Under the pieces are notes generated by a model. It worked only from the letters and a program-made list of their open reading frames with translations, ran no database searches and was not told the DNA's origin. Shown here piece after piece: positions 3,693 through 41,883 of a stretch of 64,000 nt of DNA. The position numbers and the translations under genes were made by a program. Positions within the stretch are counted from its first letter, which is position 1. The number at the start of each line of letters is the position of its first letter. The stretch covers positions 86,874 to 150,873 of the forward strand of contig JACOXU010000002.1 of NCBI GenBank assembly GCA_016182185.1. The letters run 5' to 3'. The stretch is from Candidatus Levyibacteriota bacterium. GTDB taxonomy: Bacteria > Patescibacteriota > Microgenomatia > Levybacterales > UBA12049.

Positions 3693-3725
<33 letters not shown>

Positions 3726-3801: not shown

Positions 3802-3834
<33 letters not shown>

Positions 3835-4005: not shown

Positions 4006-4036
<31 letters not shown>

Positions 4037-17991: not shown

Positions 17992-18002
17992 GTTCTGCCT
18001 CC

Positions 18003-18749: not shown

Positions 18750-18971
18750 GATGGAACCTCGCTTTCCTTGCTAGGATTGTTTAGTTCCATCACTGATTGC
18801 CCCCGGTATTCAGTTGTGTTGTCTTGGAACTACCACCTCCTTTGCGGTAGATTTGTCGCTAGATGTCGGCGTTCCCGTCGTCCTGCTGAGCTATCGGGCC
18901 AAGCCAATCACTGAATAAGAATCCAGCAAGGAAACCAAGCGCGAACACACCTACATAGATGAGCCACTTCA

Positions 18972-19892: not shown

Positions 19893-20226
19893 TCCTGACC
19901 TCTTTCTTTCTCCGACAGCTGTCAGCTGTAGGGTAGGCTTGACAATAGTTTCGGGTCGCCGTTAGAATGAGTATCGCTTTACGCGTCCTATCGGGGGCGA
20001 AGGTTGGCACGGCGCTTGTTTGGGCGCTTAGCCTTCTTTCGCTTGTGTCCGGGTCCCCAACTCAAATTAAGCCTCCTTAGGCTTGACGATGGATTGTTGC
20101 TTTTGCCTCCTTTGGTCGGATTAGAGATCGCGAACGATCTCGCATATTGTTACCGTTGGTGTGGCGTCTGCGCAACTTCCCATTATTCGGTTGTTTGACG
20201 GGTTTCTTTTTCCCGGTCACATCCGA

Positions 20227-29136: not shown

Positions 29137-31287
29137 CTATTTTGTCTTAGAGGATTTTGTTGCGTCTTCTGTGGGCGGAGGAATCTTAACCGGAGGATTT
29201 TGAGGCGGCAATTGAGACTCCGGAGCATTAATATTTAACCCTTGCTGGACAGACTCAGTAGAAGTTGTAGCTTCCGTTGGAGCTGCCCCTGTTTGAAGGC
29301 GTTTCTCCAAGGCGGCAATTTCCTGGTTTATTCTATCTAAATTAACCTTATCATTAGCGACCAATCTTTGTACAATTTGGTATTGAGACAAAGCATCTGC
29401 AAGACTTCCTTTTTGCTCAAGCGCATGCCCGAGGTTATAGTATGCATTGGCATAATCCGGCTTTAAGGATGCAGCGATTTGAAATTGCCTGATAGCATTA
29501 TCCCATTGTCCCAGCTGGTAATAAATTCCACCAAGATTAATATATTCTGTCGGGTTATTTGGGTCAAGAACAATTGCCTGTTGATTGCTAAGTATCGCAA
29601 AGGAATCTGCATTTTGCCCAAATCCAATTAAACTTCTATAAATTGAAGCAAGATTCTGCCAATTAAGAGCTGTTTGCGGAGAATAAGTAGCGGCTGAACG
29701 CCCAGCGTTAATTGACTGCTGGATTAATGTTAATATTGTTTGTTGTGTTTCCTGGTTTGGCGTCTGACCTTGTGGCTGCTGAGACGCAAGGGAATTGGCA
29801 AGAGCAAAATTTGTCTGAGAGAAAATTCTATAGTACGCGTCCCTATATGGAAAAACCTGGATGGCATTGGCCTGCTTGATGTAGGTTAGAGTTCCGTTAT
29901 TTTGAGAGGCTGCCACGAGAGATTGTTGGAATACCACATCAGATACAAGATATTTAACACTAAAAAATCCAATAGTTCCAGCTATCAAGGCAATTATAAT
30001 AAAGCTTATGATCGACAAGATTGCGTTCTTTTCTCTACTTGGGTTATCAAAAGATATCAAGCCTTGTCGAAGAGCCACAATTTGAAGCTCTATGTCAAAA
30101 TATCCTTCAGAAACAGCATTGTTCTTAAGTCCTTGCATGGCCGATGCAATTGCAAGCACAATGAAGAATAGAGCAATTATTACGAAGGAAAAGGGGAGTA
30201 CGAAACTCGCCAATATTCCTAAAAGAGTGATGGTCAATATTGTTCTTTTTCTAATTATTTTAAATAGAATAAACAGGAAAGATAATAAGCCTGCTACACC
30301 TGTGGTTGCCAAAAGTTCCAAGATAAAGCTTGATGATCTGAAGAAAGTCAGAAGCCAAAGATCTTGACTCTGGTTGAAGGCAATCTGTTTAAATCTGGTA
30401 AAATCTGTGGCAAACGTGCCAAAACCGCTGCCAAAAAGCAATCCCAAAACAACTCTTCCTGCATCCTGAGAAATTGCGGCAAAGGCAGTTTGAAATCCTG
30501 TTTCGAATGGCAAAATTAGGAATCCGCCTGATTGCTTGCTGAAGGTGAATAACTCAAAAACAGATAAAATAAATCCTACAAAAATTAAAATAAATCCTAC
30601 TCCAAAGGCAATTTCATTCACTGTAATCTTTTGCCGTCTTGCATGTTCATGGTGCTCGCTAGCCTGATCTGCAAGCGGAGTTTCATCTTTTGATCTTTTA
30701 ACAAAATGAGAAAAGAGAGGCCAAACAAAATAAAGAGCAAGAGGAAGGGAAATAAATAAATAAAGAGCTTGATCTAAAATTGAACCTGTCGTGCTGAAAG
30801 CTTGTACTCGGGTAAATTCAAAAGGCAGGATATATACTTTAAGAAATGTCAGAATCCCAATTATTGCAAGAAGAGCAGCGCCTCCAATAAGAGAAATTGC
30901 CATAAAAAGAACTGAATTTTTTTCTCTTGAATTATTTACAATAATGAAGAAGAGTAACACGACCAGCAATAGAGGTACGACTGAAATTATAGAATCAGCT
31001 TTATTTACAGCAAAAAACGAAGATACAAGAGCAACCGCCGCAAAAATAATCACCGGCAAGTCAAAGGGGGTTCTTCGTATAACAACATGCCCGCTCGCAA
31101 TAATTTTTATACCGAAGAATATAAGAGAAAGAAGGGCAACGCCCACCAGGAGAACTTGCTTGGGGAGGATAAATGGATCGGTAGTAGCTGTAGTTATTAC
31201 AAGAGGGAATAATAACAGCATTATTCCCAGAAGGAAAACTGTTGCGTTTTCAAGATATGAGATAATTTCGTTTTTCGACTGGGCCAT
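29137..31287 (-). CDS. O-antigen ligase/Wzy-like polytopic membrane protein with C-terminal TPR repeats
   Basis: About 12 TM helices with a large periplasmic loop, in a Wzy_C-like arrangement. Several C-terminal TPR units (YANAYYNLGHALEQKGSLADALSQYQ), then a Pro-rich tail. Confidence 0.45.
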   Translation of the reverse strand: MAQSKNEIISYLENATVFLLGIMLLLFPLVITTATTDPFILPKQVLLVGVALLSLIFFGIKIIASGHVVIRRTPFDLPVIIFAAVALVSSFFAVNKADSIISVVPLLLVVLLFFIIVNNSREKNSVLFMAISLIGGAALLAIIGILTFLKVYILPFEFTRVQAFSTTGSILDQALYLFISLPLALYFVWPLFSHFVKRSKDETPLADQASEHHEHARRQKITVNEIAFGVGFILIFVGFILSVFELFTFSKQSGGFLILPFETGFQTAFAAISQDAGRVVLGLLFGSGFGTFATDFTRFKQIAFNQSQDLWLLTFFRSSSFILELLATTGVAGLLSFLFILFKIIRKRTILTITLLGILASFVLPFSFVIIALFFIVLAIASAMQGLKNNAVSEGYFDIELQIVALRQGLISFDNPSREKNAILSIISFIIIALIAGTIGFFSVKYLVSDVVFQQSLVAASQNNGTLTYIKQANAIQVFPYRDAYYRIFSQTNFALANSLASQQPQGQTPNQETQQTILTLIQQSINAGRSAATYSPQTALNWQNLASIYRSLIGFGQNADSFAILSNQQAIVLDPNNPTEYINLGGIYYQLGQWDNAIRQFQIAASLKPDYANAYYNLGHALEQKGSLADALSQYQIVQRLVANDKVNLDRINQEIAALEKRLQTGAAPTEATTSTESVQQGLNINAPESQLPPQNPPVKIPPPTEDATKSSKTK

Positions 31288-31358: not shown

Positions 31359-34300
31359 TTAATTTAAGATGAACCAATTAAAAGGAATGTCCTTATATAA
31401 TGGTGTATTTATTCCTACGGTGAATGAAACATTTGGCACTTGCCTTATCAAATAAAGCACCAGATTATAGGTATCTACGGTAGGAGTAATGTAGATTAAA
31501 GATTTATCGGTAATTGATTTATTAAATATGGTAATCTCTTTCTGACCGCTCTTTATAGTTGCGATACCCGCTGATCCGGTTGCAAGAGCCTGAGTTTCAG
31601 AGATTGCCAAAGCAGGCTGAACCAGGGAGAAATTTAATTTGGAAAAGGTTCCGCTTCCCGATGATATGATATCCCCAAGTTCATTTACAGAAAGAACGGC
31701 CGAATTACTTGAGTTTCTGATCTGAAATGAGGGACTATTATAGTTCTCACTCGATTTGAGAGCAAAAACCAAATCTTGATCCGGAATTGGAGCAATTATA
31801 TTGGCAGATATTGTACCTCTAACCTTTAGATCTTTTGCAAATTCAGCGTTTCCTGAGACTTTTAAATTACCCTCCGTATCAATATATACCAATCCACTCA
31901 AAAGGGAAATTCCGCCTTGTCTTAAAGGCTGAAGCTCAAGATCGCTTCCCAAGACATTTATTGACCTGTTGGCAAGGATTAAGTTTGAGTCGACAGATAA
32001 TTCTCCTACTATAGATACATTGGATAGAGAGGAGGGACCAAGAGATATAAATCCCTGTTCAAAATAAGCAGTTGATGCTTTCAGCTCATCTATGTATGCC
32101 AATTGAGCTGAAAAGGTAGCAAGGTTTAAAATTTCAGATAAGTCTTTGGGATTAATCTGAGATAGTGTTGTCCTGCCAGAATCATTCGGTTGTAAATCAG
32201 ATTCCTCTGAGGCAAATTTTGCTTCCAGCGATTCAATTTGATCTGCTATTATTTTATTAACCCTTAAGATCCCGCTGATTGATGCATTATCGGAATTAAG
32301 ATTTTTCGCTTCTACGTCTTGAGCCGTTAATTTTCCACTGATTGATGCATCCCCGTTACTATTTATAGTAGCCACATCCTGATTTTGCGAATTTTTTATC
32401 ACTAAGGCAGTGTTCTGACCGGCTGAGCCTGAAGCAAGCTTAATTACAAGATTACTGTCTTTTGATAGGGGGCTTATAATATTTGCATATAAGCGGTCGG
32501 TTTTAACCACTGGGGAAATGATTTCATTACTTAAGTTTTCCGCAATAATATCTTTAACGTAATCCTTAAGACTCTGCCCGTTTATAAACACAGAATTAGT
32601 AGCAACTGTCAAAGAATCAGTTGATATTTCACGAGCCTTAATAATTCCTGCCTCTAAATTTTCAACTACTGCCTGAGCCAGAAATTGAGCCGCAGATAAG
32701 GTTTCGTCAATCGCTTGGATTGGGAAAGGATTGGGATTTTGATAACCAATGCCAAGAAGTAGCAAAATCTCTCCCTTGCAGTTTGAATTTTCAATTAAAC
32801 CAAAATTATCACTCGGTGCTTGAACGTTGAGGCAAGAGGCAGGATTGAATGACTGAAGAGCCCTTCCAACAACCATGCCTTCTTTGGTTGCTTTCATGGC
32901 ATAGCCAGGAATTTCTGATGACGTGAGCAGATCTCCCTCATTGATAGGACCATTAATACTGGAAACTTTGGTAGAAACAATTCCCACAAGACCAACAGGT
33001 ATTGATTTTTCTCCAAGATTTTCACCACCTAAGAAACTCGGGTTTCTTGAAGCTACACCAACGATCCTTTCATTCTGTTTACAGGGGGTTGCAAAACCTT
33101 TTTCGTCAAGACACAATATTTCTCCATAATCAATCTTTTGATTCTCATCTTTCCTTAGATATTCGGCAAAATCAGCAATTCCGTTTGTTTGATACTGTAT
33201 TCCTGTTGATCCATTTCCCCTTATCATACCGACTGTTCCCATTCCATCCTGTTCAAAATTGACCCATTTGTTTGAAGTTTGTGTATTGACCGAATTATTA
33301 CCAAGCCTTATTATTAGACCGCTTGCGTCATTTGAGGTACTACTATTATATATACGCGCCGCAGCGGTTGCTGCTTGAGCTTCCTGGACATCCAGACGGT
33401 AAGACGGATCATTTGTTCCAACCGCAACATTTCCTGCAAAGCTTGATTCAACCGATGAGTCATAAACTCTCAATGATCCGGAGATCTCAAGATCACCTTC
33501 AGAAGAAAATGTATTGGCGGTTGAGAAAAAATTTATATTTCCGCTTGAAAAGGATTGGAGCGTTAATCCTCCTTTACCTTTTGAGCTTAGAAAAAGGCCA
33601 GTATCATTAGTAGTAGTTATCTCAGAACTTAATCCGGAAAGGAATAAGTCGCCTGCAATTGTTGTATTTCCACTATTATCCACGGTAAATTTAGCAATTC
33701 TGCTTGCCGATGCGCTAATGAGTGGTCCTAAGTCGTTTTGATTGATGGTAAGGGCCGATTGAGCACTTGAGGTAGCAAGAATTGCAAACAAATCATCTAC
33801 TTCTACTGCTCCAGGTACGTCTGATAGGTTGTTATTGTTTGTGCTATTTTGTAATGGTTTCTGTAGATCAATTTTTCCCAACCCGTCAGGGGATAGCTGA
33901 ACATCTGAATTACTACCGAAAATTGTAGATAAGTATAATATATTTCCCGAAAGACTTAATTTACTATTTACAGCCTGGATAATATGGGGAATTTCGCCGC
34001 CTATCGAGAGATTTCCCGAAGAATCAAGCGCAAGAATTGCATTTGAATCAAGGGGTTCTTTTCCTGAGTTCGTAATAAGTTTAAGACCTTCAATTGATTT
34101 TGCATCCGAGGAAAGAGCAGTATTGGCAATCTGCTGACGAGGGATTAATTCATCTTTGTCTTCAATTGTTATACCAAGCCAGAGTGAAGAATTTTGCATG
34201 AAGATAGATTGAGGTATTTCGTTTTTCTCCCCTAGGCTTATCGTATATTCCCCGTTTTCATTTGGCCTAACCTGATCTAATTCTTCCCAAAGTAACGCTG

Positions 34301-35618
34301 ATCCTGATGCCTTATGATCATTATAAAGCGCAAAACGCAGATTTGTAGGCAATGTGACAGGATTACCTAAAGAGTCGGTGAGCTTTTGCCTGAAGGAGAG
34401 AACCTTTGTTTGATTAAATGGAGACTCTGCTTTAGCAAATTGTTTTCTGTCCAGTGTATTTCGAAAAAGCGATTGATATAATCCAAAACCCAAAGCAGAT
34501 GTGAAGATTATAAGTAAAGCAAAATGTAAATAATGAGATATTGGAAAAGAATGATATGCTTTGTACCATTTTGGTCTTTTATGCAATACATAATGGCTTA
34601 ATTTCTTATGTAGCGTAAGGTATTTTATTGATATAGGAGCGTAGAACGCTTTATTAATATTTGTAACTTGAGGGCCCAGGTTAATATCAGGTTTTTCTAT
34701 AAGTCGTCCTTTTTTGGTAAAAATTGATACTGAAGCAAAAATGGGTTTCTTTTTGAATCGCCAGATTAGATATTGAGTTTCATCCATAGCGCTTATGATC
34801 GGGTTTACCAGCGTATAGTCGAAGACTTTATCAAAGACCCGTATAATTTTTTGTCCTACTCTTACCGGAGGTATTTTTGAATATGAGGCGTAAAGAGGCT
34901 CAGGTCTAATAAGATCTGCCTTTTGATCAGATATGTTTGATCGTAGAGGTTTTTTTAAATCGATCGGACTAATTGATTCCAGTTCTTCCTTAGGGGTGTT
35001 TATTAAACCTGCTTCATGGCACCAGCTCAAATATTTTCTAATAGAAGAAAGCTTACGATTTACACTTGAGGGAGAGAAGTTGCTTTGTATTAGACGAGTT
35101 TTATACTCTTCAACTAAGCTACTGTTCAATTTTTCATAAATATTATCTTTTTTTACAATCCAAGCCTCTTTTGCTTCGGTAACCTTGTCAGCCCATAAAA
35201 GGAACTGCTTGATGTCATTTAAATAGTTTTTTATGGTAATCGATGATGATCCATTTGTATATAGATAGTTCTTGAAATTCCTGAAATTAAATTTATCTGA
35301 ATCCCTACCGTTGCCTTTAATCGATACTTCGAATGGATTAATTTGGATGTTTTTTTGGATTGTCAGAAAAGAGAAAAACTTTCGTAGTGAAGATAGGTAG
35401 CGCAAAACAGAATTTATTGACTGAGTGTTAGAAAGTTCTTTATTAAAAATATTAATTATTTCGGGAGTGATTAGAGAGGGAGTAAAACTAGTTTCAAAAG
35501 TATGTTCATACCAGTTGATAAATTTTTTAATATCAGCAGAATAATTTTTAACCGTTAATTTTGACGGAGGAGTTTGTTGTGAAAATAAATAATCCCTAAA
35601 TTGGACAATAAATTCCAT
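31359..35618 (-). CDS. giant (1419 aa) membrane-anchored surface protein with three N-terminal integrase-type SAM-like (core-binding) domains
   Basis: Three tandem ~70-aa repeats (LTVKNYSADIKKFINWYEHTF, ITIKNYLNDIKQFLLWADKV, SVNRKLSSIRKYLSWCHEAGLI) resemble the phage-integrase N-terminal SAM-like domain, but no catalytic domain follows. A single TM helix lies near aa 365-385. A ~1000-aa Ser/Thr/Asn/Gly-rich, beta-rich extracellular region follows. Confidence 0.5.
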   Translation of the reverse strand: MEFIVQFRDYLFSQQTPPSKLTVKNYSADIKKFINWYEHTFETSFTPSLITPEIINIFNKELSNTQSINSVLRYLSSLRKFFSFLTIQKNIQINPFEVSIKGNGRDSDKFNFRNFKNYLYTNGSSSITIKNYLNDIKQFLLWADKVTEAKEAWIVKKDNIYEKLNSSLVEEYKTRLIQSNFSPSSVNRKLSSIRKYLSWCHEAGLINTPKEELESISPIDLKKPLRSNISDQKADLIRPEPLYASYSKIPPVRVGQKIIRVFDKVFDYTLVNPIISAMDETQYLIWRFKKKPIFASVSIFTKKGRLIEKPDINLGPQVTNINKAFYAPISIKYLTLHKKLSHYVLHKRPKWYKAYHSFPISHYLHFALLIIFTSALGFGLYQSLFRNTLDRKQFAKAESPFNQTKVLSFRQKLTDSLGNPVTLPTNLRFALYNDHKASGSALLWEELDQVRPNENGEYTISLGEKNEIPQSIFMQNSSLWLGITIEDKDELIPRQQIANTALSSDAKSIEGLKLITNSGKEPLDSNAILALDSSGNLSIGGEIPHIIQAVNSKLSLSGNILYLSTIFGSNSDVQLSPDGLGKIDLQKPLQNSTNNNNLSDVPGAVEVDDLFAILATSSAQSALTINQNDLGPLISASASRIAKFTVDNSGNTTIAGDLFLSGLSSEITTTNDTGLFLSSKGKGGLTLQSFSSGNINFFSTANTFSSEGDLEISGSLRVYDSSVESSFAGNVAVGTNDPSYRLDVQEAQAATAAARIYNSSTSNDASGLIIRLGNNSVNTQTSNKWVNFEQDGMGTVGMIRGNGSTGIQYQTNGIADFAEYLRKDENQKIDYGEILCLDEKGFATPCKQNERIVGVASRNPSFLGGENLGEKSIPVGLVGIVSTKVSSINGPINEGDLLTSSEIPGYAMKATKEGMVVGRALQSFNPASCLNVQAPSDNFGLIENSNCKGEILLLLGIGYQNPNPFPIQAIDETLSAAQFLAQAVVENLEAGIIKAREISTDSLTVATNSVFINGQSLKDYVKDIIAENLSNEIISPVVKTDRLYANIISPLSKDSNLVIKLASGSAGQNTALVIKNSQNQDVATINSNGDASISGKLTAQDVEAKNLNSDNASISGILRVNKIIADQIESLEAKFASEESDLQPNDSGRTTLSQINPKDLSEILNLATFSAQLAYIDELKASTAYFEQGFISLGPSSLSNVSIVGELSVDSNLILANRSINVLGSDLELQPLRQGGISLLSGLVYIDTEGNLKVSGNAEFAKDLKVRGTISANIIAPIPDQDLVFALKSSENYNSPSFQIRNSSNSAVLSVNELGDIISSGSGTFSKLNFSLVQPALAISETQALATGSAGIATIKSGQKEITIFNKSITDKSLIYITPTVDTYNLVLYLIRQVPNVSFTVGINTPLYKDIPFNWFILN

Positions 35619-36175
35619 AAAATATTATTGAGATAATGATGTGAAAATTTACTACATAGCCTCAAAATTATACTAATTATACGGATTATCTTAGATAAAA
35701 CTGATAATTTTATCTAGAATAAGTTATATAATATTTTATGTCAAGAACCTAGAGTAATTTGCTTAGTTTAATTCGATATATATTGATGTACTTTATTGCT
35801 AAAATTTTATATGTGAAAAAATATGAATCAGCCGTGAAATAGTAAGGTAGCATTATTATTCTGTTAATTTTCGTATTTAATCTATTTTTTACTATATATA
35901 AATCTATATATTTTAATATCAAAATCTTATTTTTTGCAAATGATTGATTTTGATGTATTTAATTGAAAATTTAGAGTTGAAGATGGGTGCTTGTTAAATT
36001 TGGGTCGATTTTGTGGATTTATTTTGAGGCTAACAGCCATAACTATAGTCCTATATTTGGCGCTTTCCGACTTCAAGTGATAAATTATTGTAAGTAGCTA
36101 TTTAGATTGGTTTGACAGTTAATGTTTTTTAAAGCGGGTAATTATTGACTCAATTTTCTTCTCTTTTTTTGATTA

Positions 36176-37180
36176 CTATCTATTTTTTAATTTTCGTGCC
36201 ACTTTTTTGGCTAAAGTTAATGTAGCAAATAAACCGATCAAGACAATAATAGCATATTTAACAGGAAAAGCAATAAACGAGAGCGATTTACTAATGGTCG
36301 GGCTGTTATCGGATAGAGAGATATTAAGCTCAGCAGTATAATATCCAAGTATAAATCGCTTTGGCAAGTAAATCTTTGTTTCATTACTTCTACTTGATGA
36401 ATTAAAAATTTTGTTTTCCTGCTCATTGTAATTTGACATCAATCTTGATGAATTTGATAATATATTAACTGAATCAAGTTTAATCCTGCCTACAGTTTTA
36501 CCAAAGATGTTTTTTATCGTTATGTTTCCCTGGGGAGAAATAAATGAGCTACCCTTATTTGTAATTTCCAGATCAAATTCAATAGGCGAGTCATTAAAAA
36601 AAGTTTTTGAATCAAACCTAGAGATTTCAGCTTGAATTTTATTATTTCTAACAATAGATAAAAGCACGTTGCTTGCTATTCCTTGAGAAATCTGTGAGTG
36701 ACTAAATTTAGAATCATTTTTTGGTAGGGATAGAAAGATAATTGAAAAGTAAAGATCTAAAGATGTATAATTTTCCGGTATATTTACTCTCAGGTTAAGT
36801 TTTTTCTTCTGTTTGGGAGCAAGGATAATGTTTCCTTCCAAGGCTTTTTCTCCATCATATATTCTTATCTTATTTAGAAGCTCTGTCTTTTCTATGCTTA
36901 GTTGATTTGATTCAACGGACTCGACCTCTCCGTTTTTCTTATCTGTTGCTGTAAATGGCCTTAAAATTATTTGGATTTCAACTGGTTCTTTCTCAAGATT
37001 ATTTATCCAAAATTGGGCTGATACATCAGCAGGGGGAATAGCACTGATCGCGATAACTGGTGGAGAAATAGAGAGCGATTGCGGAGCCGCCATGGTCTCA
37101 AGCGATAAGAGCAAAAAAATCACACCAAAAAATGCGAAGGCAACAATCTTATTTTTCATCTTAGAAATTTGGCAAAGCAA
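36176..37180 (-). CDS. hypothetical secreted/membrane-anchored protein
   Basis: N-terminal signal/TM segment and a C-terminal TM helix plus basic tail. Confidence 0.4.
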   Translation of the reverse strand: MLCQISKMKNKIVAFAFFGVIFLLLSLETMAAPQSLSISPPVIAISAIPPADVSAQFWINNLEKEPVEIQIILRPFTATDKKNGEVESVESNQLSIEKTELLNKIRIYDGEKALEGNIILAPKQKKKLNLRVNIPENYTSLDLYFSIIFLSLPKNDSKFSHSQISQGIASNVLLSIVRNNKIQAEISRFDSKTFFNDSPIEFDLEITNKGSSFISPQGNITIKNIFGKTVGRIKLDSVNILSNSSRLMSNYNEQENKIFNSSSRSNETKIYLPKRFILGYYTAELNISLSDNSPTISKSLSFIAFPVKYAIIVLIGLFATLTLAKKVARKLKNR

Positions 37181-37892
37181 TATATGTAAGTGTATTGATA
37201 TATTTTGTTATCTTTTGAGCATTTGAGATATTGACCTTATAGGTTATTTTTGCCTGTTTTTTCTTGTCTTCTGAATGGCCGCTTAGGACTTTTTCCCATG
37301 CTTCTTCTTTGGATAAATCAGGGAGTTGTTTAAATAACTGATCAGCCTCAAAATCTATACAGTCATTTCCGATCAGTTTATCGCATCTATAGCCGAATCC
37401 GTAAACGGTTGCTTCTTTCCAAACGGCAGGAATTGTTTGAGTGCAGCTTCCATTGTCGCAGGTTGTATCAGGAATTGGGATGTTTTCAGAAGATTTAAGC
37501 TCTTGATTTTCGCTTGCAAGAACAATATAGCCAGTTGAATTAGAGTAAATTGTCAGCAAATTTGTTCTCGTAACGGGATTGTTGGGTGATAAAATTCCAA
37601 AATCAATTAGGTCAGATGACAAGGAGAAGGAAAAATTTGAATTTTGCTTCTCGAAACCATATTTCACTTTAAAATTTTTTCCAATATAAATATCAGATGG
37701 AGAATCAGTTAGGCGAGGTTTTTCTTTTTTTGGCATGCTTATTGTTTCTGTAGGAACAATTGGTTCAGATTGTAGATTAATTTTATCTCCTGACATAACC
37801 TGGGCATTTAATACTTTGATATATTTTGATCCAGTAAAGAAAATTGAAATGAGCATGGAAAAGATGAAGAAAACTACAGGAGGTCGTGTCAT
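37161..37892 (-). CDS. hypothetical secreted protein
   Basis: N-terminal TM/signal. Overlaps the downstream gene by 20 nt, suggesting an operon. Confidence 0.4.
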   Translation of the reverse strand: MTRPPVVFFIFSMLISIFFTGSKYIKVLNAQVMSGDKINLQSEPIVPTETISMPKKEKPRLTDSPSDIYIGKNFKVKYGFEKQNSNFSFSLSSDLIDFGILSPNNPVTRTNLLTIYSNSTGYIVLASENQELKSSENIPIPDTTCDNGSCTQTIPAVWKEATVYGFGYRCDKLIGNDCIDFEADQLFKQLPDLSKEEAWEKVLSGHSEDKKKQAKITYKVNISNAQKITKYINTLTYIALPNF

Positions 37893-37893: not shown

Positions 37894-38514
37894 TCAACTT
37901 ATTTCGTCTCTAATTTTCTCAGCATCTGAGACAATATTTTTAAGCTCGATAATTTCTTCAGGACTTCTAGGGGTTTCTTTTTCAAGTAAATCTTTGCTTG
38001 TATCTTCGATCTCATCTACATAACCCTCTACTTTTTCTTTCTCGAGATGATCATCCGAATCGGCACCTTTTTGATACTCTCTTCCAAACAGGAATGCAAT
38101 AGGAGAAACCAAGAGTAATGAACCGAGTCTTATAAAATTTCCGGTGACATCGTCTTTTAGAGCATCCGGAAGAAAGACCATGATGACACTTGCGCAAAAA
38201 ACAGCGATCGTAATCGGATCAAATACAAAAACCAAAGCAAATACGACAAAATATAGAAGAAAGAAGAAACTTGATGCAATACTGCCGGTTGAGAAGATAA
38301 AAAGAAGAATGATTGTGTTTAGTATAAATACTGAGAGGGGACCTCCTAAAAATATCATTTTTATTTTCTTTGTTCCAGCGAATGTACTTACTACATATAT
38401 AAAGATCAAAAAACCGATAATCTGAATTGTGTAATTCGCAAGAGGACTTTGTTGCCATATAAATACCAGGATAAAAGATAAAAGCAATAGGAGAGATTGA
38501 AGGAGTATTTTCAT
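37894..38514 (-). CDS. hypothetical polytopic membrane protein
   Basis: 4-5 TM helices, then an acidic C-terminal tail. Confidence 0.4.
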   Translation of the reverse strand: MKILLQSLLLLLSFILVFIWQQSPLANYTIQIIGFLIFIYVVSTFAGTKKIKMIFLGGPLSVFILNTIILLFIFSTGSIASSFFFLLYFVVFALVFVFDPITIAVFCASVIMVFLPDALKDDVTGNFIRLGSLLLVSPIAFLFGREYQKGADSDDHLEKEKVEGYVDEIEDTSKDLLEKETPRSPEEIIELKNIVSDAEKIRDEIS

Positions 38515-38649: not shown

Positions 38650-41238
38650 ATGGCTAAATCTAGCTCAAAAAAAGAAATTCCAAAGTATAATCCTACAGAA
38701 GTTGAGCCTAAATGGCAAAAATATTGGCTTGAAAATAAAATTTACCAGCCGGATATGGATAAGGCCAAAAAGCCCTTTTATAATCTCATGATGTTTCCAT
38801 ATCCATCAGCCGAAGGTATGCATGTGGGCAATATGTATGCTTTTACGGGCTCAGATGTTTATGGGCGATTTAAAAGGATGCAAGGACACGATGTTTTTGA
38901 ACCGATCGGACTTGATGGATTTGGAATTCACAGCGAAAATTATGCTTTAAAAGTTGGTAAACATCCTAAAGAACAGGCAAAGGTAAGCCAGGAAAATTTT
39001 TACAGACAGCTTCGAGTAACCGGAAATAGCTTTGCCTGGGATAATAAACTCGAAACCTATGACCCAGATTATTACAGATGGACACAATGGATATTTATCA
39101 AGCTTTTCAAAAAAGGATTAGCCTACCGCAAGAAAGCATCAGTTAATTTCTGCCCATCCTGCAAGACAGTTCTTGCAGATGAACAGGTGATTGCCGGAAA
39201 GTGTGAGCGCTGCGGTACCGAGGTTGTCAAAAAAGAGCTTGAGCAATGGTTTTTTAAGATCACCGACTATGCCGAAAGGCTCCTTAATAACATTGATGGG
39301 CTGGATTGGACAGAAAAAGTCAAAATCGCCCAAAGACAATGGATAGGGCGATCAGAGGGAGCGTTAATAAAATTCAAAATTCAAAATTCAAAATTCAAAA
39401 TGAAGACGATAGAAGTATTTACGACTCGGCCTGATACTCTTTATGGTGCAACCTTTATGGTTTTGGCTCCTGAGCATTCTCTTTCAAGAGAGATTGCAAG
39501 AGGCAATAACGAAATTGCGAAATATATCAAGGAATCTCAAAGCAAAACAGATCAGGATAGAATTGCAGAAGGCAGGGATAAGACAGGCATCGACTCAGGC
39601 TTGAGGGCCATAAATCCGGTAAGCAAAGAGGAAATTCCCGTATGGATTGCTGACTACGTGCTTATGGGCTATGGAACAGGTGCAATAATGGCAGTTCCTG
39701 CTCATGATGAGCGCGATTTTGAGTTCGCCCAAAAGTATAATCTTAGTATAAAATTTGTTATCAAGCCGATAGAAAATGATTTAGATACCAGAAAAGCTTA
39801 TTTGGGAGCAGGACAAGTAATCAATTCCGGGAAAGATTGGAATGATTATTTTGTGCCTGATGCAATCCCACGGATGATTGATGATCTTGAAAAGTGGGGA
39901 ATGGGAAAAAGACAAATCCAATATCACCTTCGGGATTGGCTTATCTCGAGGCAAAGATACTGGGGGCCGCCGATTCCCATGATTGATTGTCCAAAGTGTG
40001 GGTGGCAGGCAGTTGCTGAGAAAGATTTACCGGTACTTCTTCCCGATATTAAGGATTGGAAGCCTACAGGAGCTGGTAAATCACCGCTTGCTACGGTTGA
40101 GAGCTTTGTAAATACAAACTGTCCCGTATGCGGAGGACCTGCCAAACGAGAAACCGATGTATCTGACACATTTCTTGACAGCGCATGGTACTTCTTTCGT
40201 TACATAGCTACAGATTTTAAAGATGTTCCATTCCCTTCTAGTGCGTTTCATGATGATGCTGAGGTTGCTTCCAACAATTTTCGTCTTCACAAAGCGGGTA
40301 AATCTTCTGATTCATCCCGGAATGTCAGTGACGCAAATGTTCAGAGCGAAAATTTTAAAAGCTCCCCGCACCAAAGTCAAAACCGAACTGAAAAATGGCT
40401 TCCGGTGAACATGTATATAGGAGGAGCAGAACATTCGGTCTTACATCTGCTTTATTCAAGGTTTCTGACAATGGTTTTTAAGGATTTAGACTTGATATCT
40501 TTCGAAGAGCCATATTCTAAATTCAGAGCGCATGGGTTGCTCGTAAAGGAAGGGGCTAAAATGAGCAAGAGCAAGGGGAATGTAGTCATTCCGGATGAAT
40601 ACATTAAAAAATTTGGAGCAGATACCTTAAGGCTTTACTTAATGTTCCTCGGACCTTTTACTCAAGGAGGAGACTTTTACGATACGGGAATTGAAGGTAT
40701 GTATAGATTCGTCAGAAGAATCTGGACTCTAATTCATACAGTTAATTTCTCAACTCAATCCACAGGTGAAGGATTAAAAATAATGAACAAGACTATTAAA
40801 AAGGTAACAGAAGACTTGGAGGCTCTCAGGTACAACACAGCTATTGCAACGCTAATGGAATATTACAATTTTTTGTCAAAGGAACAAACTATATCAAAAG
40901 AGCAGATCGAAATATTAATTATTTTAACTTCACCCTTCGCTCCGCACATTTCTGAAGAAATTTGGGAGTTCTTAGGTCATAAAAATTCCATAAGCCAAAC
41001 AAATTGGCCCAGGTTTTCAGATAAATTTCTCGTCGAAAAAAATACGATAATCGTATTACAAGTGAATGGCAAAATTAGGGACACTTTCATGGTAGAAAAA
41101 TCTGAAATTGACAATAAGCAGACAATTGAAAAGATTGCTAGACAAAGTAAAAGAGCCAAAAAATACTTTGAAAACAAGCAAATCAGAAATGTCGTTTACG
41201 TAAAGGGAAAAATAATTAACTTTGTAATTGACAATTAG
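38650..41238 (+). CDS. leuS: leucyl-tRNA synthetase
   Basis: HVGNMYAF matches the HIGH motif (HMGH-type in LeuS). Also FTTRPDTLYGATF, WISRQRYWG and KMSKSKGN. It contains a ~43-aa in-frame insertion at 40258-40378 and an in-frame heptamer repeat at 39368-39400. Confidence 0.9.
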   Translation: MAKSSSKKEIPKYNPTEVEPKWQKYWLENKIYQPDMDKAKKPFYNLMMFPYPSAEGMHVGNMYAFTGSDVYGRFKRMQGHDVFEPIGLDGFGIHSENYALKVGKHPKEQAKVSQENFYRQLRVTGNSFAWDNKLETYDPDYYRWTQWIFIKLFKKGLAYRKKASVNFCPSCKTVLADEQVIAGKCERCGTEVVKKELEQWFFKITDYAERLLNNIDGLDWTEKVKIAQRQWIGRSEGALIKFKIQNSKFKMKTIEVFTTRPDTLYGATFMVLAPEHSLSREIARGNNEIAKYIKESQSKTDQDRIAEGRDKTGIDSGLRAINPVSKEEIPVWIADYVLMGYGTGAIMAVPAHDERDFEFAQKYNLSIKFVIKPIENDLDTRKAYLGAGQVINSGKDWNDYFVPDAIPRMIDDLEKWGMGKRQIQYHLRDWLISRQRYWGPPIPMIDCPKCGWQAVAEKDLPVLLPDIKDWKPTGAGKSPLATVESFVNTNCPVCGGPAKRETDVSDTFLDSAWYFFRYIATDFKDVPFPSSAFHDDAEVASNNFRLHKAGKSSDSSRNVSDANVQSENFKSSPHQSQNRTEKWLPVNMYIGGAEHSVLHLLYSRFLTMVFKDLDLISFEEPYSKFRAHGLLVKEGAKMSKSKGNVVIPDEYIKKFGADTLRLYLMFLGPFTQGGDFYDTGIEGMYRFVRRIWTLIHTVNFSTQSTGEGLKIMNKTIKKVTEDLEALRYNTAIATLMEYYNFLSKEQTISKEQIEILIILTSPFAPHISEEIWEFLGHKNSISQTNWPRFSDKFLVEKNTIIVLQVNGKIRDTFMVEKSEIDNKQTIEKIARQSKRAKKYFENKQIRNVVYVKGKIINFVIDN
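39368..39400 (+). repeat. heptamer tandem repeat (aaaattc)x4.5, in-frame in leuS
   Basis: taaaattcaaaattcaaaattcaaaattcaaaatg, encoding IKFKIQNSKFKM in a variable loop just before the FTTRPDT motif. Confidence 0.75.
40258..40378 (+). mobile_element. RPE-like ~120-bp palindromic element inserted in-frame within leuS
   Basis: About 75% identical to the intergenic copy at 57833-57936 (shared gctgaggt, caaaatttt, gcgggyarat, cagygacgcaaatg, gctccccgc). Its termini are inverted (aattttcg...cgaaaatt). It sits where E. coli LeuS has 20 aa between the ARY and WLPV motifs and this gene has 63 aa. Confidence 0.5.
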
Positions 41239-41253
41239 CTTCAATTTTTAGTC

Positions 41254-41880
41254 ATGGAGAGACAAGAAATTATCGACAAGTATTCGTCTTTTTTTAAAAA
41301 AAATTGGATTGCTGTTGTTCCGGGAATAATTGGGTTGATATTGTTAGGTTATGGTTTGATAGGGTTACTGACTTCGTCTAATGACCCAAATGATATCTCA
41401 TTTACAAAGAGAGGCGAAGCCGAAACTTCACAATTAGAAAATAATAATAAACGAGAAATAATGGTAGATGTAGAAGGAGCTGTTCTTTCTCCGGGTGTTT
41501 ATAACTTGTCCCAAAATGCAAGAATAAAAGATGCACTTATTGCCGCTGGCGGATTATCAGGTAGCGCAGACAGAGATTGGATTGCCAAAAATCTAAACCT
41601 AGCCGCAAAATTATCTGATGCGGCTAAGCTCTACATTCCATTCAAAGGAGAGGCGGGTATTCAAAGTTATAATTCGGGAGGAATTAATTTAATATCAAGC
41701 TCAATCAATATAAATTCAGCAAGCATGAAAGAATTAGACAGTCTTTCTGGAATAGGCCCAGTTACAGCCCAAAAAATTATCGACGGGAGACCTTATCAGG
41801 CAGTAGATGAATTAATTTCAAAGAAAATAATCGGGAATAGTGTTTTTGAGAAGATAAAGGATAGAATAACCGCTTATTAA
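41254..41880 (+). CDS. comEA: competence protein ComEA (SLBB domain plus helix-hairpin-helix DNA-binding)
   Basis: N-terminal TM, then the C-terminal HhH motif INSASMKELDSLSGIGPVTAQKIIDGRPY. Confidence 0.75.
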   Translation: MERQEIIDKYSSFFKKNWIAVVPGIIGLILLGYGLIGLLTSSNDPNDISFTKRGEAETSQLENNNKREIMVDVEGAVLSPGVYNLSQNARIKDALIAAGGLSGSADRDWIAKNLNLAAKLSDAAKLYIPFKGEAGIQSYNSGGINLISSSININSASMKELDSLSGIGPVTAQKIIDGRPYQAVDELISKKIIGNSVFEKIKDRITAY

Positions 41881-41883
41881 TCA

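What the first reader, a model, noticed from the sequence alone, without database searches (positions are those of the whole stretch)
31359..35618. Giant surface protein with three tandem integrase-type SAM-like DNA-binding domains but no catalytic domain
The 1419-aa ORF begins with three repeats (~aa 10-80, 110-180 and 160-215) that resemble the N-terminal core-binding SAM-like domain of tyrosine recombinases (..TVKNYSADIKKFINWYE..; ..TIKNYLNDIKQFLLWAD..; ..SVNRKLSSIRKYLSWCHEAGLI). A single TM helix follows at about aa 365-385, then about 1000 residues of Ser/Thr/Asn/Gly-rich, beta-strand-like repeats typical of fibre or adhesin proteins. A tail-fibre-like block appears near aa 820-900 (IVGVASRNPSFLGGE...GLVGIVSTKVSS). 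A cytoplasmic tandem DNA-binding module fused through one TM helix to a huge extracellular domain would be an unusual one-component transmembrane signalling or DNA-tethering architecture. A 560-bp AT-rich non-coding region (35620-36175) precedes it.
Basis: partly seen in the sequence, partly recalled or inferred. Interest (0 to 1): 0.65.

Follow-up and report, generated by a model that had tools for sequence, protein, structure and literature searches.

The report
Surface fibre tethered to DNA-binding domains
A 1419-residue protein of an uncultured Levybacteria (CPR) bacterium joins two integrase-type DNA-binding domains inside the cell, through one membrane helix, to a phage-tail-fibre-like filament outside; databases call it an "integrase", which it is not, and it may couple the cell surface directly to DNA.

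Summary
The ORF (31359-35618, minus strand, 1419 aa) is real. It carries two, not three, XerC/D-type core-binding (SAM-like) domains and no recombinase catalytic domain. A basic juxtamembrane segment and one TM helix (aa 359-386) follow, with charge signals indicating N-in/C-out. The ~1030 extracellular residues are phage-fibre-like. They include a phi29 gp12-type (Peptidase G2) auto-processing domain that keeps the DFAEY cleavage motif. The protein matches an NCBI entry annotated "site-specific integrase [Candidatus Levybacteria]".

It belongs to a family of at least 220 clusters at 50% identity. 214 of 229 sampled members have exactly two CB domains. A ~660-aa base and a ~450-aa C-terminal module are conserved; the middle varies, giving proteins up to 6048 aa.

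Homologous Woesebacteria fibres carry two MerR-type HTH domains instead of CB domains, so DNA binding appears to be the selected property.

An array of three 9-bp-phased (G)TATAAT heptads lies between a conserved promoter and the start codon. It is found before CB-type genes (67/86 loci) and not before MerR-type genes (0/5).

Upstream neighbours include a Pam-type pilin.

Best reading: a membrane-tethered surface fibre whose cytoplasmic CB pairs bind DNA, probably its own operator. DNA binding, trimerisation and cleavage are inferred, not shown.

The parts
31359..35618 (-). Whole gene, 1419 aa: tandem-CB / TM / fibre protein. Identical to an NCBI protein annotated 'site-specific integrase [Candidatus Levybacteria bacterium]'.
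35355..35609 (-). Core-binding (SAM-like) domain 1, aa 4-88. Four-helix bundle, pLDDT >90.
   Evidence: Pfam PF02899 E 1.5e-17; AF2 model; Foldseek top hits are XerD/XerA/lambda Int/IntI CB domains.
35013..35279 (-). Core-binding (SAM-like) domain 2, aa 114-202. Invariant K130 N131 Y132 D135 N187 R188 K189.
   Evidence: Pfam PF13495 E 3e-9 and NCBIfam XerC E 2.5e-20, N-terminal part only; invariant columns.
34752..34871 (-). Long cytoplasmic helix, aa 250-289 (conserved YSxFPPxRLxQK...D...P...W). Moderately hydrophobic; not a TM helix in this protein.
   Evidence: AF2. Median of 3 charged residues and basic flanks on both sides across 120 homologs.
34545..34661 (-). Conserved basic, His/aromatic-rich juxtamembrane segment, aa 320-358 (NIxKSFYAP..IST...HKK..H.L.H.RPxWYKxYHSY).
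   Evidence: Invariant P349 W351 Y352 Y355; 50% mean identity, against 11-22% for the linkers.
34461..34544 (-). Single transmembrane helix, aa 359-386, N-in/C-out.
   Evidence: Hydropathy and positive-inside statistics; AF2 helix 359-386.
33639..34409 (-). Conserved extracellular base: beta-sandwich EX1 (aa 404-500) plus conserved stalk (aa 501-660).
   Evidence: pLDDT 83-91 for EX1; 46-53% identity. This is the limit of the part shared by all homologs, ~46-50% query coverage.
32799..33428 (-). phi29 gp12-type (Peptidase G2) intramolecular-chaperone / auto-processing domain, aa 731-940.
   Evidence: Pfam PF11962 E 3e-7, above cut-off. Foldseek 3gqh E 6e-5 and 3suc E 1.4e-4. BFVD 'preneck appendage protein' rmsd 2.7 A over 147 columns.
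33159..33173 (-). DFAEY (aa 816-820): predicted autocleavage site A815|D816.
   Evidence: Aligns to residue 1 of the gp12 C-terminal fragment (3gqh, DFAEYFES...). Mature gp12* ends at residue 691 (PMC6542822). D, A and E are >=90% conserved in the family.
31362..32798 (-). Conserved post-chaperone C-terminal module, aa 941-1419, ending in a confident beta-sandwich (aa 1340-1419, ...FNWFILN).
   Evidence: Present at the very C-terminus of 200/228 family members of 1.3-6.0 kaa; pLDDT ~90 for the last 80 aa.
35657..35690 (-). Gene-specific repeat array GATAATccGTATAATtaGTATAATtttGAGGCTA: three heptads with a 9-bp period. Candidate operator.
   Evidence: Exact GTATAATNNGTATAAT occurs once per locus in 67/86 loci, always just upstream of this gene, and nowhere else in ~960 kb or in the window. 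Absent upstream of MerR-type fibre genes. No RNA structure or Rfam family.
35716..35756 (-). Conserved sigma-70-like promoter TACTCTAGGttcTTGACA-17-TATTCT.
   Evidence: TTGAC present in 66/67 loci with a TAttCT-like hexamer 17-18 nt downstream.
37161..37892 (-). Upstream neighbour, 243 aa, signal peptide: Pam-type (PamT-like) pilin.
   Evidence: NCBIfam CPR_Pam_pilin_C E 2.8e-6, below cut-off. 20/22 orthologs hit it and 13/22 hit PamT, best E 6e-17. Upstream and same strand in 55/84 loci.
36176..37180 (-). Upstream neighbour, 334 aa: signal peptide plus C-terminal TM anchor. Candidate membrane-anchored pilus chaperone or anchor (PamC/D/R-like by layout only).
   Evidence: Hydropathy; weak WxLIP_PGBD hit; upstream in 68/84 loci. 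No Pam model hit.
37894..38514 (-). Upstream neighbour, 206 aa, polytopic membrane protein of unknown function.
   Evidence: found in 28/84 loci.
29137..31287 (-). Downstream neighbour, 716 aa: ~10 TM segments plus C-terminal TPR. Follows the fibre gene in Levybacteria and in Woesebacteria.

Best explanation
The gene encodes a bitopic envelope protein, not a recombinase.

Shown from sequence and profiles:
- Two XerC/D-type core-binding four-helix domains lie in tandem, with no catalytic domain.
- A conserved basic juxtamembrane segment and one TM helix follow. Charge signals indicate N-in/C-out.
- The ~1030-residue ectodomain is built like a phage tail fibre or tailspike. It contains a phi29-gp12-type auto-processing chaperone domain with the DxxE cleavage motif intact.
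- A conserved ~480-aa C-terminal module follows that domain.

Inferred:
- The ectodomain trimerises, as all such chaperone-containing fibres do, and is displayed on the cell surface. It sits next to Pam-type pilus genes and probably acts as a contact or attachment structure of this episymbiotic-type (CPR) bacterium.
- The cytoplasmic CB pairs (six per trimer) bind double-stranded DNA.
- The most likely target is the array of three 9-bp-phased (G)TATAAT heptads between the gene's own conserved promoter and its start codon.
- The protein would then be a membrane-tethered (auto)regulator. It would couple the amount or state of a surface fibre to transcription, like ToxR/CadC in logic, with parts reminiscent of MYRF.
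For: Domain identity:
- Pfam and NCBIfam hits.
- AF2 model with pLDDT >90 for both CB domains.
- Foldseek top 13 hits are almost all tyrosine-recombinase CB domains: XerD rmsd 2.1 A, 3nrw TMt 0.77.

Topology.

Fibre nature:
- PF11962, gp12 structures, alignment of DFAEY to the gp12 post-cleavage N-terminus.
- 139 phage-protein structural matches at E<=1e-3.

Selection on the CB domains:
- They are 44-49% identical across 55 orthologs, against 11-22% for the linkers. This equals the folded ectodomains.
- The invariant residues are polar or basic and lie in helices B and D. In XerH-difH the CB four-helix bundle inserts into the major groove and supplies most base-specific contacts (PMC5241119).

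DNA binding as the selected property:
- Homologous TM-fibres in Woesebacteria, and a neighbouring paralog-like giant in L003, carry two MerR/HTH_17 domains in place of the two CB domains.

Operator candidate:
- The exact 16-mer is present once, immediately upstream, in 67/86 species-level loci whose proteins are only 31-46% identical. It is absent elsewhere in ~1 Mb.
- It is also present before the divergent Woesebacteria CB-type genes and absent before 5/5 MerR-type fibre genes.
- It lies 21-53 nt downstream of a conserved TTGACA-17-TAttCT promoter.
- There is no conserved RNA fold.
- The heptad contains the xATAA pentamer of dif inner arms, which Xer CB domains read.
Against: - No experiment or structure shows DNA binding, trimerisation or cleavage for any member.
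- (G)TATAAT is also the sigma-70 -10 consensus. The array could be tandem -10 boxes, or the site of another regulator or sigma factor. Its resemblance to dif arms is cheap in AT-rich DNA.
- The spacing between promoter and array is not fixed (21-53 nt).
- The covariation test rests on only 5 MerR-type loci, two of them near-identical, and 4 Woesebacteria CB-type loci.
- A signal would be hard to carry along a >1000-residue fibre and a single TM helix.
- In about a quarter of homologs a second segment (aa ~259-281) reaches TM-like hydrophobicity. This leaves a small chance of another topology in those members.
- The auto-processing domain sits mid-protein and is followed by a conserved 480-aa module. 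My model does not explain this.
Confidence: 0.45

Rival explanations
1. DNA or nucleoid tether rather than regulator. The CB pairs bind chromosomal DNA, at the heptad array or non-specifically. This physically anchors the chromosome or this locus to the envelope site where the fibre sits, for example for polarity, segregation or co-transcriptional insertion, with no regulatory output.
For: Same evidence for DNA binding as the main explanation. The DBD is permanently membrane-bound. Cells of this group are tiny, so DNA is always near the membrane (general knowledge of CPR cells, not tested here).
Against: The conserved array sits between promoter and start codon of the protein's own gene. That is the classic place for an operator. 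A tether would not need to be there, and no other sites are known.
Confidence: 0.18
2. A purely structural surface fibre or adhesin. The CB pair has lost DNA binding and serves as a cytoplasmic anchor, oligomerisation platform or docking site for another protein. The upstream heptads are just a strong, conserved promoter or leader.
For: TATAAT is the -10 consensus. The fibre, the Pam-type pilin neighbour and the TPR membrane protein point to an envelope-appendage role. In Woesebacteria CB2 is split between two polypeptides. The domain can therefore serve as a protein-protein docking device.
Against: Replacement of CB pairs by MerR-HTH pairs on homologous fibres is hard to explain unless DNA binding is the shared function. 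The invariant polar and basic residues lie in the DNA-contacting helices. The array is gene-specific and more conserved than the protein, and it is absent from MerR-type genes.
Confidence: 0.2
3. A proteolytically released transcription factor. Contact or load on the fibre, or fibre shedding at the G2 site, triggers cleavage in or near the membrane (Notch- or anti-sigma-like regulated intramembrane proteolysis, or MYRF-like logic). The CB pair is freed to act on DNA.
For: The protein combines a DBD, a TM helix and a phage auto-processing domain, the same parts as MYRF (PMC3742443, PMC3742440). It has a conserved Gly-containing TM helix and a highly conserved juxtamembrane segment.
Against: The auto-processing domain is on the extracellular side, ~430 residues from the TM. 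Its cleavage would release the C-terminal part, not the DBD. No protease site or partner protease was identified.
Confidence: 0.1
4. Part of DNA uptake or transfer. The membrane-proximal CB pairs handle incoming or outgoing DNA near the competence machinery.
For: The fibre genes lie next to comEA-comEC-MBL-leuS. This holds in Levybacteria and, for both CB-type and MerR-type genes, in Woesebacteria-like contigs.
Against: The adjacency may be inherited synteny and the genes are divergently or convergently arranged. ComEC delivers single-stranded DNA, whereas CB and MerR domains bind duplex DNA sequence-specifically (established knowledge). No transfer genes are linked in most loci.
Confidence: 0.05
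5. A true integrase or mobile-element gene, a prophage tail-fibre gene, or an assembly or gene-fusion artefact.
For: NCBI and JGI annotate members as 'site-specific integrase', 'XerD' or 'tail fiber domain-containing protein'.
Against: There is no catalytic domain. The same full-length architecture is found in >200 clusters from independent assemblies. Chromosomal synteny with leuS, comEA/EC, rho and rRNA is conserved and no phage genes are present. No PHROG hit and no tblastn hit in 50,697 phage genomes.
Confidence: 0.02

Closest known systems
ToxR / CadC / TcpP-type bitopic membrane-bound transcription regulators (one-component transmembrane regulators)
   Same: N-terminal cytoplasmic DNA-binding domain, single TM helix and extracytoplasmic C-terminal domain. 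The regulator stays in the membrane while binding promoter DNA. A candidate operator lies at its own promoter.
   Different: The DBD is a tandem pair of recombinase core-binding domains, or MerR HTHs in relatives, not an OmpR-type winged helix. The outside part is a ~1000-5600-residue phage-fibre-like filament, not a small sensor domain. Regulation is not demonstrated.
MYRF (myelin regulatory factor) and relatives: eukaryotic membrane-bound transcription factors with a phage tailspike ICA domain (PMC3742443, PMC3742440, PMC5436001)
   Same: It combines a DNA-binding domain, a TM helix and a phage intramolecular-chaperone auto-processing domain that drives trimerisation. In MYRF, trimerisation is what confers DNA binding.
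   Different: In MYRF the order is DBD-ICA(S74)-TM, and cleavage on the cytoplasmic side frees the DBD. Here the order is DBD-TM-fibre-IMC(G2 or S74)-C-module, so cleavage would occur outside the cell and would not free the DBD. The DBD folds are unrelated.
Bdellovibrio MAT (mosaic adhesive trimer) fibres and phage tail fibres/tailspikes with S74 or G2 chaperones (PMC10769870; phi29 gp12, PDB 3gqh/3suc)
   Same: A chromosomally encoded, phage-fibre-like surface filament of a bacterium that lives on other cells. It has a conserved cell-proximal beta-rich domain, mosaic variable parts and an S74 or non-S74 chaperone. The structural matches include Bd2133 and gp12.
   Different: MAT fibres and phage fibres have a signal peptide or virion-attachment domain, not a TM helix with cytoplasmic DNA-binding domains. 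Their variable part is the C-terminal tip and the chaperone is terminal. Here the middle varies, and the chaperone is followed by a conserved ~450-aa module.
XerC/XerD and other tyrosine recombinases (core-binding domain)
   Same: The two N-terminal domains are bona fide CB four-helix bundles, closest to XerC/XerD profiles. The conserved motifs lie in the DNA-contacting helices.
   Different: There is no catalytic domain (no RHRY fold), the CB domain is duplicated, and the protein is membrane-anchored. It cannot recombine DNA.
Pam pilus system of CPR bacteria (Troman et al., bioRxiv 10.64898/2026.03.03.709456)
   Same: The upstream neighbour is a PamT-like pilin, next to a signal-peptide/C-terminal-TM protein laid out like the Pam chaperones or anchor. 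That paper notes that 'a tail fibre-like protein' consistently co-localises with pam operons and ATP-synthase genes. The Woesebacteria locus L211 shows exactly that neighbourhood.
   Different: The fibre protein is not a donor-strand-exchange pilin. The paper says nothing about its DNA-binding N-terminus or membrane anchor. No PamA/B rod pilins were found within +/-6 kb here.

Membership tests
Tyrosine recombinase / site-specific integrase (current database annotation) | C-terminal catalytic domain with the R-H-R-Y active site (Pfam Phage_integrase) | tested here: not met
   No Phage_integrase hit even at E<=1. XerC/XerD models match only positions ~2-111 of 290-295, at 59-73 bits against cut-offs of 330-335. 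The rest of the protein is TM plus fibre.
Tyrosine recombinase / site-specific integrase (current database annotation) | N-terminal core-binding (SAM-like) four-helix domain | tested here: met
   PF02899 and PF13495 above cut-off, twice. AF2 plus Foldseek to XerD, XerA, lambda Int and IntI.
Peptidase G2 / phi29 gp12-type intramolecular chaperone | Sequence and fold of the auto-chaperone domain | tested here: met
   PF11962 30.4 bits, cut-off 25. Foldseek 3gqh E 6e-5 and 3suc 1.4e-4. BFVD preneck appendage proteins.
Peptidase G2 / phi29 gp12-type intramolecular chaperone | Cleavage-site motif D-x-x-E at the start of the released fragment | tested here: met
   DFAEY (aa 816-820) aligns to residues 1-5 of the gp12 C-terminal fragment. 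D, A and E are >=90% conserved. The catalytic role of D and E is from my memory of the gp12 literature and was not checked here.
Peptidase G2 / phi29 gp12-type intramolecular chaperone | Domain is C-terminal (~160 aa) and is removed after trimer assembly | tested here: not met
   604 residues follow the predicted site. The last ~450 form a module conserved in 200/228 members. S74-type relatives also have the chaperone mid-protein. Actual cleavage cannot be tested with these tools.
Bitopic membrane-bound transcription regulators (ToxR/CadC-like) | Cytoplasmic N-terminal DBD + single TM + extracytoplasmic domain, N-in | tested here: met
   Layout only; the DBD fold differs from the OmpR-type wHTH.
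Bitopic membrane-bound transcription regulators (ToxR/CadC-like) | Sequence-specific binding to promoter DNA and control of transcription | not testable with these tools
   Only indirect evidence is available. There is a gene-specific heptad array downstream of a conserved promoter, and its presence tracks the CB-type DBD.
MYRF-like membrane transcription factors | ICA domain between the DBD and the TM, so that self-cleavage frees the DBD | tested here: not met
   The IMC domain lies at aa 731-940, on the other side of the TM (aa 359-386).
MAT / phage-fibre-like trimeric adhesins | Trimeric beta-helical or fibre body with mosaic modules and an S74 or alternative terminal domain | tested here: inconclusive
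   Fibre-like sequence and structural matches. Mosaic middle with G2, S74 or pectate-lyase-like modules. The monomer AF2 model has low confidence in the fibre segments. The trimer was not modelled.
MAT / phage-fibre-like trimeric adhesins | Secreted via a signal peptide, or attached to a virion | tested here: not met
   No N-terminal signal peptide. The first 358 residues are a basic, folded cytoplasmic region followed by a signal-anchor TM.
Pam pilus system (neighbouring genes) | [quoted passage not shown] | tested here: inconclusive
   The 243-aa neighbour hits CPR_Pam_pilin_C over the full profile at E 2.8e-6, but with 27.5 bits against a cut-off of 55. 20/22 orthologs hit it and 13/22 hit PamT, best E 6e-17. 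The giant protein itself hits no Pam model.

The most novel reading that the evidence does not exclude
A phage-tail-fibre-like surface filament is wired directly to the genome. As a trimer it presents three pairs of exapted Xer-type core-binding domains to a three-heptad operator in its own leader. Assembly, loss or engagement of the external fibre, for example on contact with a host cell, would then be read out as transcription without any second messenger. This would be the first case of recombinase core-binding domains serving as a transcription-factor DBD. It would also be the first transmembrane regulator whose 'sensor' is a fibre. The DBD would be modular, interchangeable with MerR HTH pairs, across Microgenomates.
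Probability: 0.25. Interest if true: 0.85.

Novelty: new variant of a known kind. Interest (0 to 1): 0.68.

Why it matters
CPR/Patescibacteria are a large and mostly uncultured part of bacterial diversity. How these tiny, host-dependent cells sense and hold on to other cells is largely unknown.

This family is present in at least ~220 sequence clusters and in most sampled Levybacteria. It is currently mislabelled as an integrase, which inflates counts of mobile elements in these genomes.

If the cytoplasmic domains bind DNA as inferred, three things follow:
- A physical one-protein link from a cell-surface fibre to the chromosome.
- A new use of the recombinase core-binding fold.
- An experimentally simple entry point, a 34-bp candidate operator and a 230-residue soluble domain, into gene regulation of organisms that cannot be grown.

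The link to the newly described Pam pilus neighbourhood gives the 'tail fibre-like protein' noted there a concrete and unexpected architecture.

Tried and rejected
- **Three-domain reading:** rejected. Two complete four-helix domains are present.
- **Second TM helix / N-out topology:** helix aa 259-281 is charged (6 charged residues here, median 3 in the family) and has basic flanks on both sides, so it is not a TM helix. 30/120 homologs do reach the hydropathy threshold there.
- **Invertible promoter (fimS-like):** a perfect 12-bp inverted repeat (35657-35668 / 36021-36032) flanks the promoter in the window. No other locus has a repeat above the shuffled background, so this is not a family feature.
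- **Leader RNA element:** no Rfam match at E<=1. RNAalifold finds 0 conserved pairs in 16 leaders.
- **Prophage or defence origin:** no PHROG hit for the ectodomain, no PADLOC hit, and no tblastn match in 50,697 phage genomes.
- **PDB by sequence:** nothing for aa 1-230. Only gp12, at E 0.065, for aa 701-960.
- **Motif in metagenomes:** 105 of 120 exact matches to the 20-nt pattern are unrelated AT-rich sites in other organisms. The short pattern alone is therefore not diagnostic. The extended ...YTYGWRGCT version together with its context is.
- **Extra EX1-only or CB-only proteins in the 86 loci:** none found.
- **Literature:** searches for a described CB-TM fusion or a CPR integrase-like surface protein found nothing relevant.
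- **Technical:** an 87-sequence full-length alignment failed, so smaller sets were used.

Full report
**Observation**

The window is a piece of a bacterial chromosome. It carries 23S and 5S rRNA, tRNAs, leuS, rho and comEA/comEC, and has 39% GC. The protein is identical to an NCBI entry annotated 'site-specific integrase [Candidatus Levybacteria bacterium]'. The organism is therefore a member of the CPR/Patescibacteria (Microgenomates).

**N-terminal domains**

- Pfam finds Phage_int_SAM_1 at aa 4-88 (E 1.5e-17) and Phage_int_SAM_4 at aa 114-199 (E 3e-9), both above the curated cut-offs.
- NCBIfam XerC, XerD and XerA models match, but only over their first ~90-110 positions. Scores are 59-73 bits against cut-offs of 330-335.
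- No catalytic-domain family appears even at E<=1.
- An AlphaFold2 model of aa 1-420, built on 42 homologs, gives two four-helix bundles (aa 2-87 and 112-202) at pLDDT >90.
- Foldseek against the PDB puts tyrosine-recombinase core-binding domains in nearly all of the top 13 places: XerD 1a0p rmsd 2.1 A over 94 columns, 3nrw TMt 0.77. E-values are weak (0.04-0.5) because the domain is a small part of the query.
Motifs 2 and 3 are helices B and D of domain 2.
- In 229 family members, 214 have exactly two domains. The exceptions are almost all N-terminally truncated gene calls.

**Topology**

- Only one segment is strongly hydrophobic, aa ~359-386.
- The preceding 358 residues have net charge +23 and the following 1030 have -36.
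- Over 120 homologs the 15 residues before the helix hold 4.1 K/R on average, against 1.2 after it.
- There is no N-terminal signal peptide.
- A second, moderately hydrophobic helix (aa 259-281) reaches TM-like hydropathy in 30/120 homologs. It carries a median of three charged residues and has basic flanks on both sides. I read it as a cytoplasmic or membrane-surface helix.
Only an experiment can settle it.

**Ectodomain**

- Pfam detects a Peptidase_G2 'IMC autoproteolytic cleavage domain' at aa 795-866.
- The AF2 model of aa 390-1419 is confident for three parts: a membrane-proximal beta-sandwich (aa ~404-500), the aa ~730-940 domain, and a C-terminal beta-sandwich (aa 1340-1419). It is poor for the fibre segments, as expected for a monomer model of a trimeric fibre.
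- The best PDB matches are the phi29 gp12 C-terminal auto-chaperone (3gqh, E 6e-5) and pre-mature gp12 (3suc). Tailspikes and a Bdellovibrio MAT fibre follow.
- In the viral library 139 proteins match at E<=1e-3, including 'preneck appendage protein' with rmsd 2.7 A.
- By sequence, DFAEYLRKD... (aa 816-) aligns to residue 1 of the crystallised gp12 C-terminal fragment, DFAEYFES.... Mature gp12* ends at residue 691 (PMC6542822). The motif therefore marks the predicted scissile bond A815|D816, and D, A and E are >=90% conserved.
- Unlike gp12, 604 residues follow the site.

**The family**

- The word-indexed search found 143 relatives. All carry the SAM domains and are annotated 'site-specific integrase', 'XerD' or 'tail fiber domain-containing protein'.
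- An exhaustive phmmer search with aa 240-640 found 220 cluster representatives at E<=1e-30. Lengths reach 6048 aa. The juxtamembrane module nearly always starts at residue ~235-290, that is, behind two CB domains.
- A GTDB-wide scan confirmed 217 loci. The 80 kept are Levybacteria wherever the record is meaningfully named.
- Conservation is bipartite. The first ~660 residues (CB1 44%, CB2 49%, juxtamembrane 50%, TM 46%, EX1 46%, stalk 53% identity) and the last ~450 residues (48-52%) are conserved. The linkers (11-22%) and the middle vary.
- The C-terminal module sits at the very end of 200/228 members, whatever their length.
- The middle contains either a G2 or an S74 chaperone, or a pectate-lyase-like beta-helix. 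The chaperone is always mid-protein.

**Is DNA binding the point?** Three observations bear on this.

1. The CB domains are as conserved as the folded ectodomains. Their invariant residues are polar or basic and lie in helices B and D: T22 K24 N25 Y26 D29, R73, K130 N131 Y132 D135, N187 R188 K189. In XerH-difH the CB four-helix bundle inserts into the major groove and supplies most base-specific contacts, to the inner 5 bp of each arm (PMC5241119).
2. The DBD is interchangeable.
   - In locus L003 the CB-type gene is followed by an 1821-aa protein with two MerR/HTH_17 domains (aa 28-74, 80-124), a TM helix (~213-235), a fibre and a Peptidase_S74 domain.
   - In Woesebacteria, fibres homologous to one another carry either the CB module or two MerR HTHs in front of the TM helix. 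P0285 and P0287 are 34% identical over ~560 residues to the CB-type P0262. P0289 and P0290 are further MerR-type examples.
   - Two unrelated duplex-DNA-binding folds, each in tandem, on the same kind of membrane-anchored fibre argue that DNA binding is what is selected.
3. There is a candidate target (next section).

**Candidate operator**

- The 557-bp upstream region is not featureless. Its proximal ~330 nt is conserved even in an ortholog with 50% protein identity.
- It contains TACTCTAGGnnnTTGACA-17-TATTCT, a good sigma-70-type promoter. TTGAC is present in 66/67 loci.
- 21-53 nt further on lies rATAAYnnGTATAATnnGTATAATyTyGwrGCTr, three heptads with a 9-bp period.
- The exact 16-mer GTATAATNNGTATAAT occurs once per locus in 67 of 86 loci, always just upstream of this gene. 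It occurs nowhere else in ~960 kb of loci or in the 64-kb window. The proteins in these loci are only 31-46% identical in the N-terminal region.
- There is no Rfam family and no conserved RNA pairing, so it is a linear recognition element.
- In a metagenome scan most exact matches to a 20-nt version are unrelated. However, 15/120 precede tandem-CB genes, including a divergent Woesebacteria lineage that lacks the Levybacteria juxtamembrane module.
- The five MerR-type fibre genes I could retrieve have a TTGAC promoter but no heptad array. The array thus follows the CB-type DBD rather than the fibre.
- The heptad contains the xATAA(T) pentamer of dif inner arms (table in PMC2731167). I treat that resemblance as a lead only, because TATAAT is also the -10 consensus.

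**Neighbourhood**

- The order leuS-comEA-comEC-MBL (opposite strand) | 206-aa membrane protein - 243-aa secreted protein - 334-aa signal/C-terminal-TM protein - gap - fibre gene - polytopic TPR protein | zf_Tbcl is kept in relatives at 75%, 73%, 50% and 37% identity.
- In 84 species-level loci, the 334-aa gene is found upstream in 68 and the 243-aa gene in 55.
- The 243-aa protein is a Pam-type pilin. It covers the whole CPR_Pam_pilin_C profile (E 2.8e-6, below the cut-off). 20/22 orthologs hit that model and 13/22 hit PamT, best E 6e-17.
- The Pam pilus was described in 2026 (bioRxiv 10.64898/2026.03.03.709456). It has donor-strand-exchange pilins, membrane-anchored chaperones with C-terminal TM helices, and a remark that 'a tail fibre-like protein' and ATP-synthase genes consistently co-localise with pam operons.
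- The Woesebacteria locus L211 shows comEA-leuS | CB-ORF1 - fibre ORF2 - TPR | ATP synthase. This family is very likely that tail fibre-like protein. The paper says nothing about its DNA-binding head or membrane anchor.

**Mechanism**

I commit to the following, at about 45% overall.

- The protein is inserted N-in. Its ectodomain trimerises with the help of the G2 chaperone domain and probably self-cleaves at A815|D816. It forms a surface fibre that works alongside Pam-type appendages.
- The six cytoplasmic CB domains bind duplex DNA. The three-heptad array in its own leader is the preferred site, making the protein a membrane-tethered (auto)regulator.
- Shown: domain identities, absence of the catalytic domain, topology signals, family-wide conservation, DBD swapping, gene-specific array and its distribution.
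- Inferred: trimer, cleavage, DNA binding, regulatory consequence.
- Unexplained: why the chaperone is followed by a conserved 450-aa module, which would be released with it. Also unexplained is what signal, if any, crosses the membrane.

Rivals are a non-regulatory DNA tether, a pure adhesin with a degenerate CB platform, a proteolytically released factor, and a role in DNA uptake. Integrase, prophage and artefact readings are excluded.

**Comparison and novelty**

- In logic the closest are ToxR/CadC-type bitopic regulators.
- In parts the closest is eukaryotic MYRF (DBD + phage ICA + TM; PMC3742443, PMC3742440). There the ICA lies on the DBD side of the membrane and frees the DBD, which is not the case here.
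- The ectodomain resembles Bdellovibrio MAT fibres (PMC10769870) and phi29 gp12.
- It fails the defining test for a tyrosine recombinase.
- I found no description of this fusion in 8 million papers and preprints.
- I rate it a new variant of known kinds, membrane-bound regulator and phage-like surface fibre. Interest is 0.68. The architecture is solid, widespread and misannotated, and it offers a simple decisive experiment. Its function is still inferred.

Noticed in passing
window 35657-35690 (-) and 35716-35756 (-); same position in L003-L086: A three-heptad (G)TATAAT array with 9-bp period lies downstream of a conserved TTGACA-17-TATTCT promoter. It is more conserved than the protein it precedes and unique to this gene in ~1 Mb examined. 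TTTTCACA copies also recur at about -220/-200 and -40 (window 35812-35819 and 35640-35647).
   Followed up: yes
window 37161-37892 (-), 36176-37180 (-), 37894-38514 (-): Three conserved upstream genes: a PamT-like Pam pilin, a signal-peptide/C-terminal-TM protein laid out like Pam chaperones or anchor, and a small polytopic membrane protein. This is a minimal Pam-like set with no rod pilins nearby. What supplies the donor strand to the tip-type pilin is unknown.
   Followed up: partly
L003:14329-19794 (+); L207-L210; proteins P0285, P0287, P0289, P0290, P0230-P0258: A parallel architecture with an unrelated DBD: two MerR/HTH_17 domains + TM + fibre (+ Peptidase_S74). Some fibres are homologous to CB-type fibres. 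Shorter members (250-690 aa) also exist in several Patescibacteria groups.
   Followed up: partly
L139 (oriented minus strand; ORF1 2458-2979, ORF2 370-2451), L141, L211:2529-6483, L212, L213:509-3498: In Woesebacteria the gene is split inside CB2. ORF1 (156-173 aa) encodes CB1 plus helices A and B of CB2. ORF2 starts with helices C and D of CB2, followed by TM and fibre. The junction is an in-frame stop or an overlap in different frames in different contigs. This looks like a genuine two-polypeptide version that would reconstitute CB2 non-covalently.
   Followed up: partly
window 31362-32798 (-), aa 941-1419: The auto-processing chaperone (G2 here, S74 in relatives) is mid-protein. It is followed by a ~450-aa module conserved at the extreme C-terminus of 200/228 members, from 1.3 to 6.0 kaa. 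The middle varies, not the tip, which is the opposite of phage receptor-binding proteins. Function unknown.
   Followed up: partly
window 35657-35668 and 36021-36032: A perfect 12-bp inverted repeat (ATTTTGAGGCTA / TAGCCTCAAAAT) brackets 352 bp that include the promoter and heptad array. It is not found in any other locus, so it is probably chance or strain-specific.
   Followed up: yes
window 34545-34661 (-), aa 320-358: The juxtamembrane segment is unusually rich in His, Tyr, Trp and Lys (LHKKLSHYVLHKRPKWYKAYHSFPISHYLHF) with invariant P349 W351 Y352 Y355. This is as conserved as the folded domains. Possible lipid-, metal- or partner-binding site.
   Followed up: no
window 38650-43982 (+); L001, L003, L005, L208, L211: Fibre genes of both DBD types recurrently lie next to leuS-comEA-comEC-MBL (DNA-uptake genes), on different sides in different lineages.
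   Followed up: no
window 16001-20000: A block of 57% GC in a 37-39% GC genome. It contains ORFs 16368-17717 (bacterial TSP3 repeat), 18003-18749 and 18972-19892 (no Pfam family). Possible foreign DNA or an assembly chimera.
   Followed up: no
window 21884-24052 (+) and 24145-24828 (-): A TraG/VirD4/TrwB-like coupling ATPase (HerA, TrwB_AAD_bind, TraG-D_C hits) lies next to a DUF11/CLIPPER surface protein. The latter is also conserved near the fibre locus in L005 and L006.
   Followed up: no
window 1128-4173 (+): The 23S rRNA spans 3046 nt against a 2925-position model, suggesting an insertion. In L003 a 23S_rRNA_IVP gene sits beside the fibre genes.
   Followed up: no
loci L008, L011, L013 etc.: Many MAG records carrying this Levybacteria-type locus are titled 'uncultured Gammaproteobacteria bacterium' (also Sulfotelmatobacter, Methylomirabilota). 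These look like placeholder or wrong taxonomic labels.
   Followed up: no
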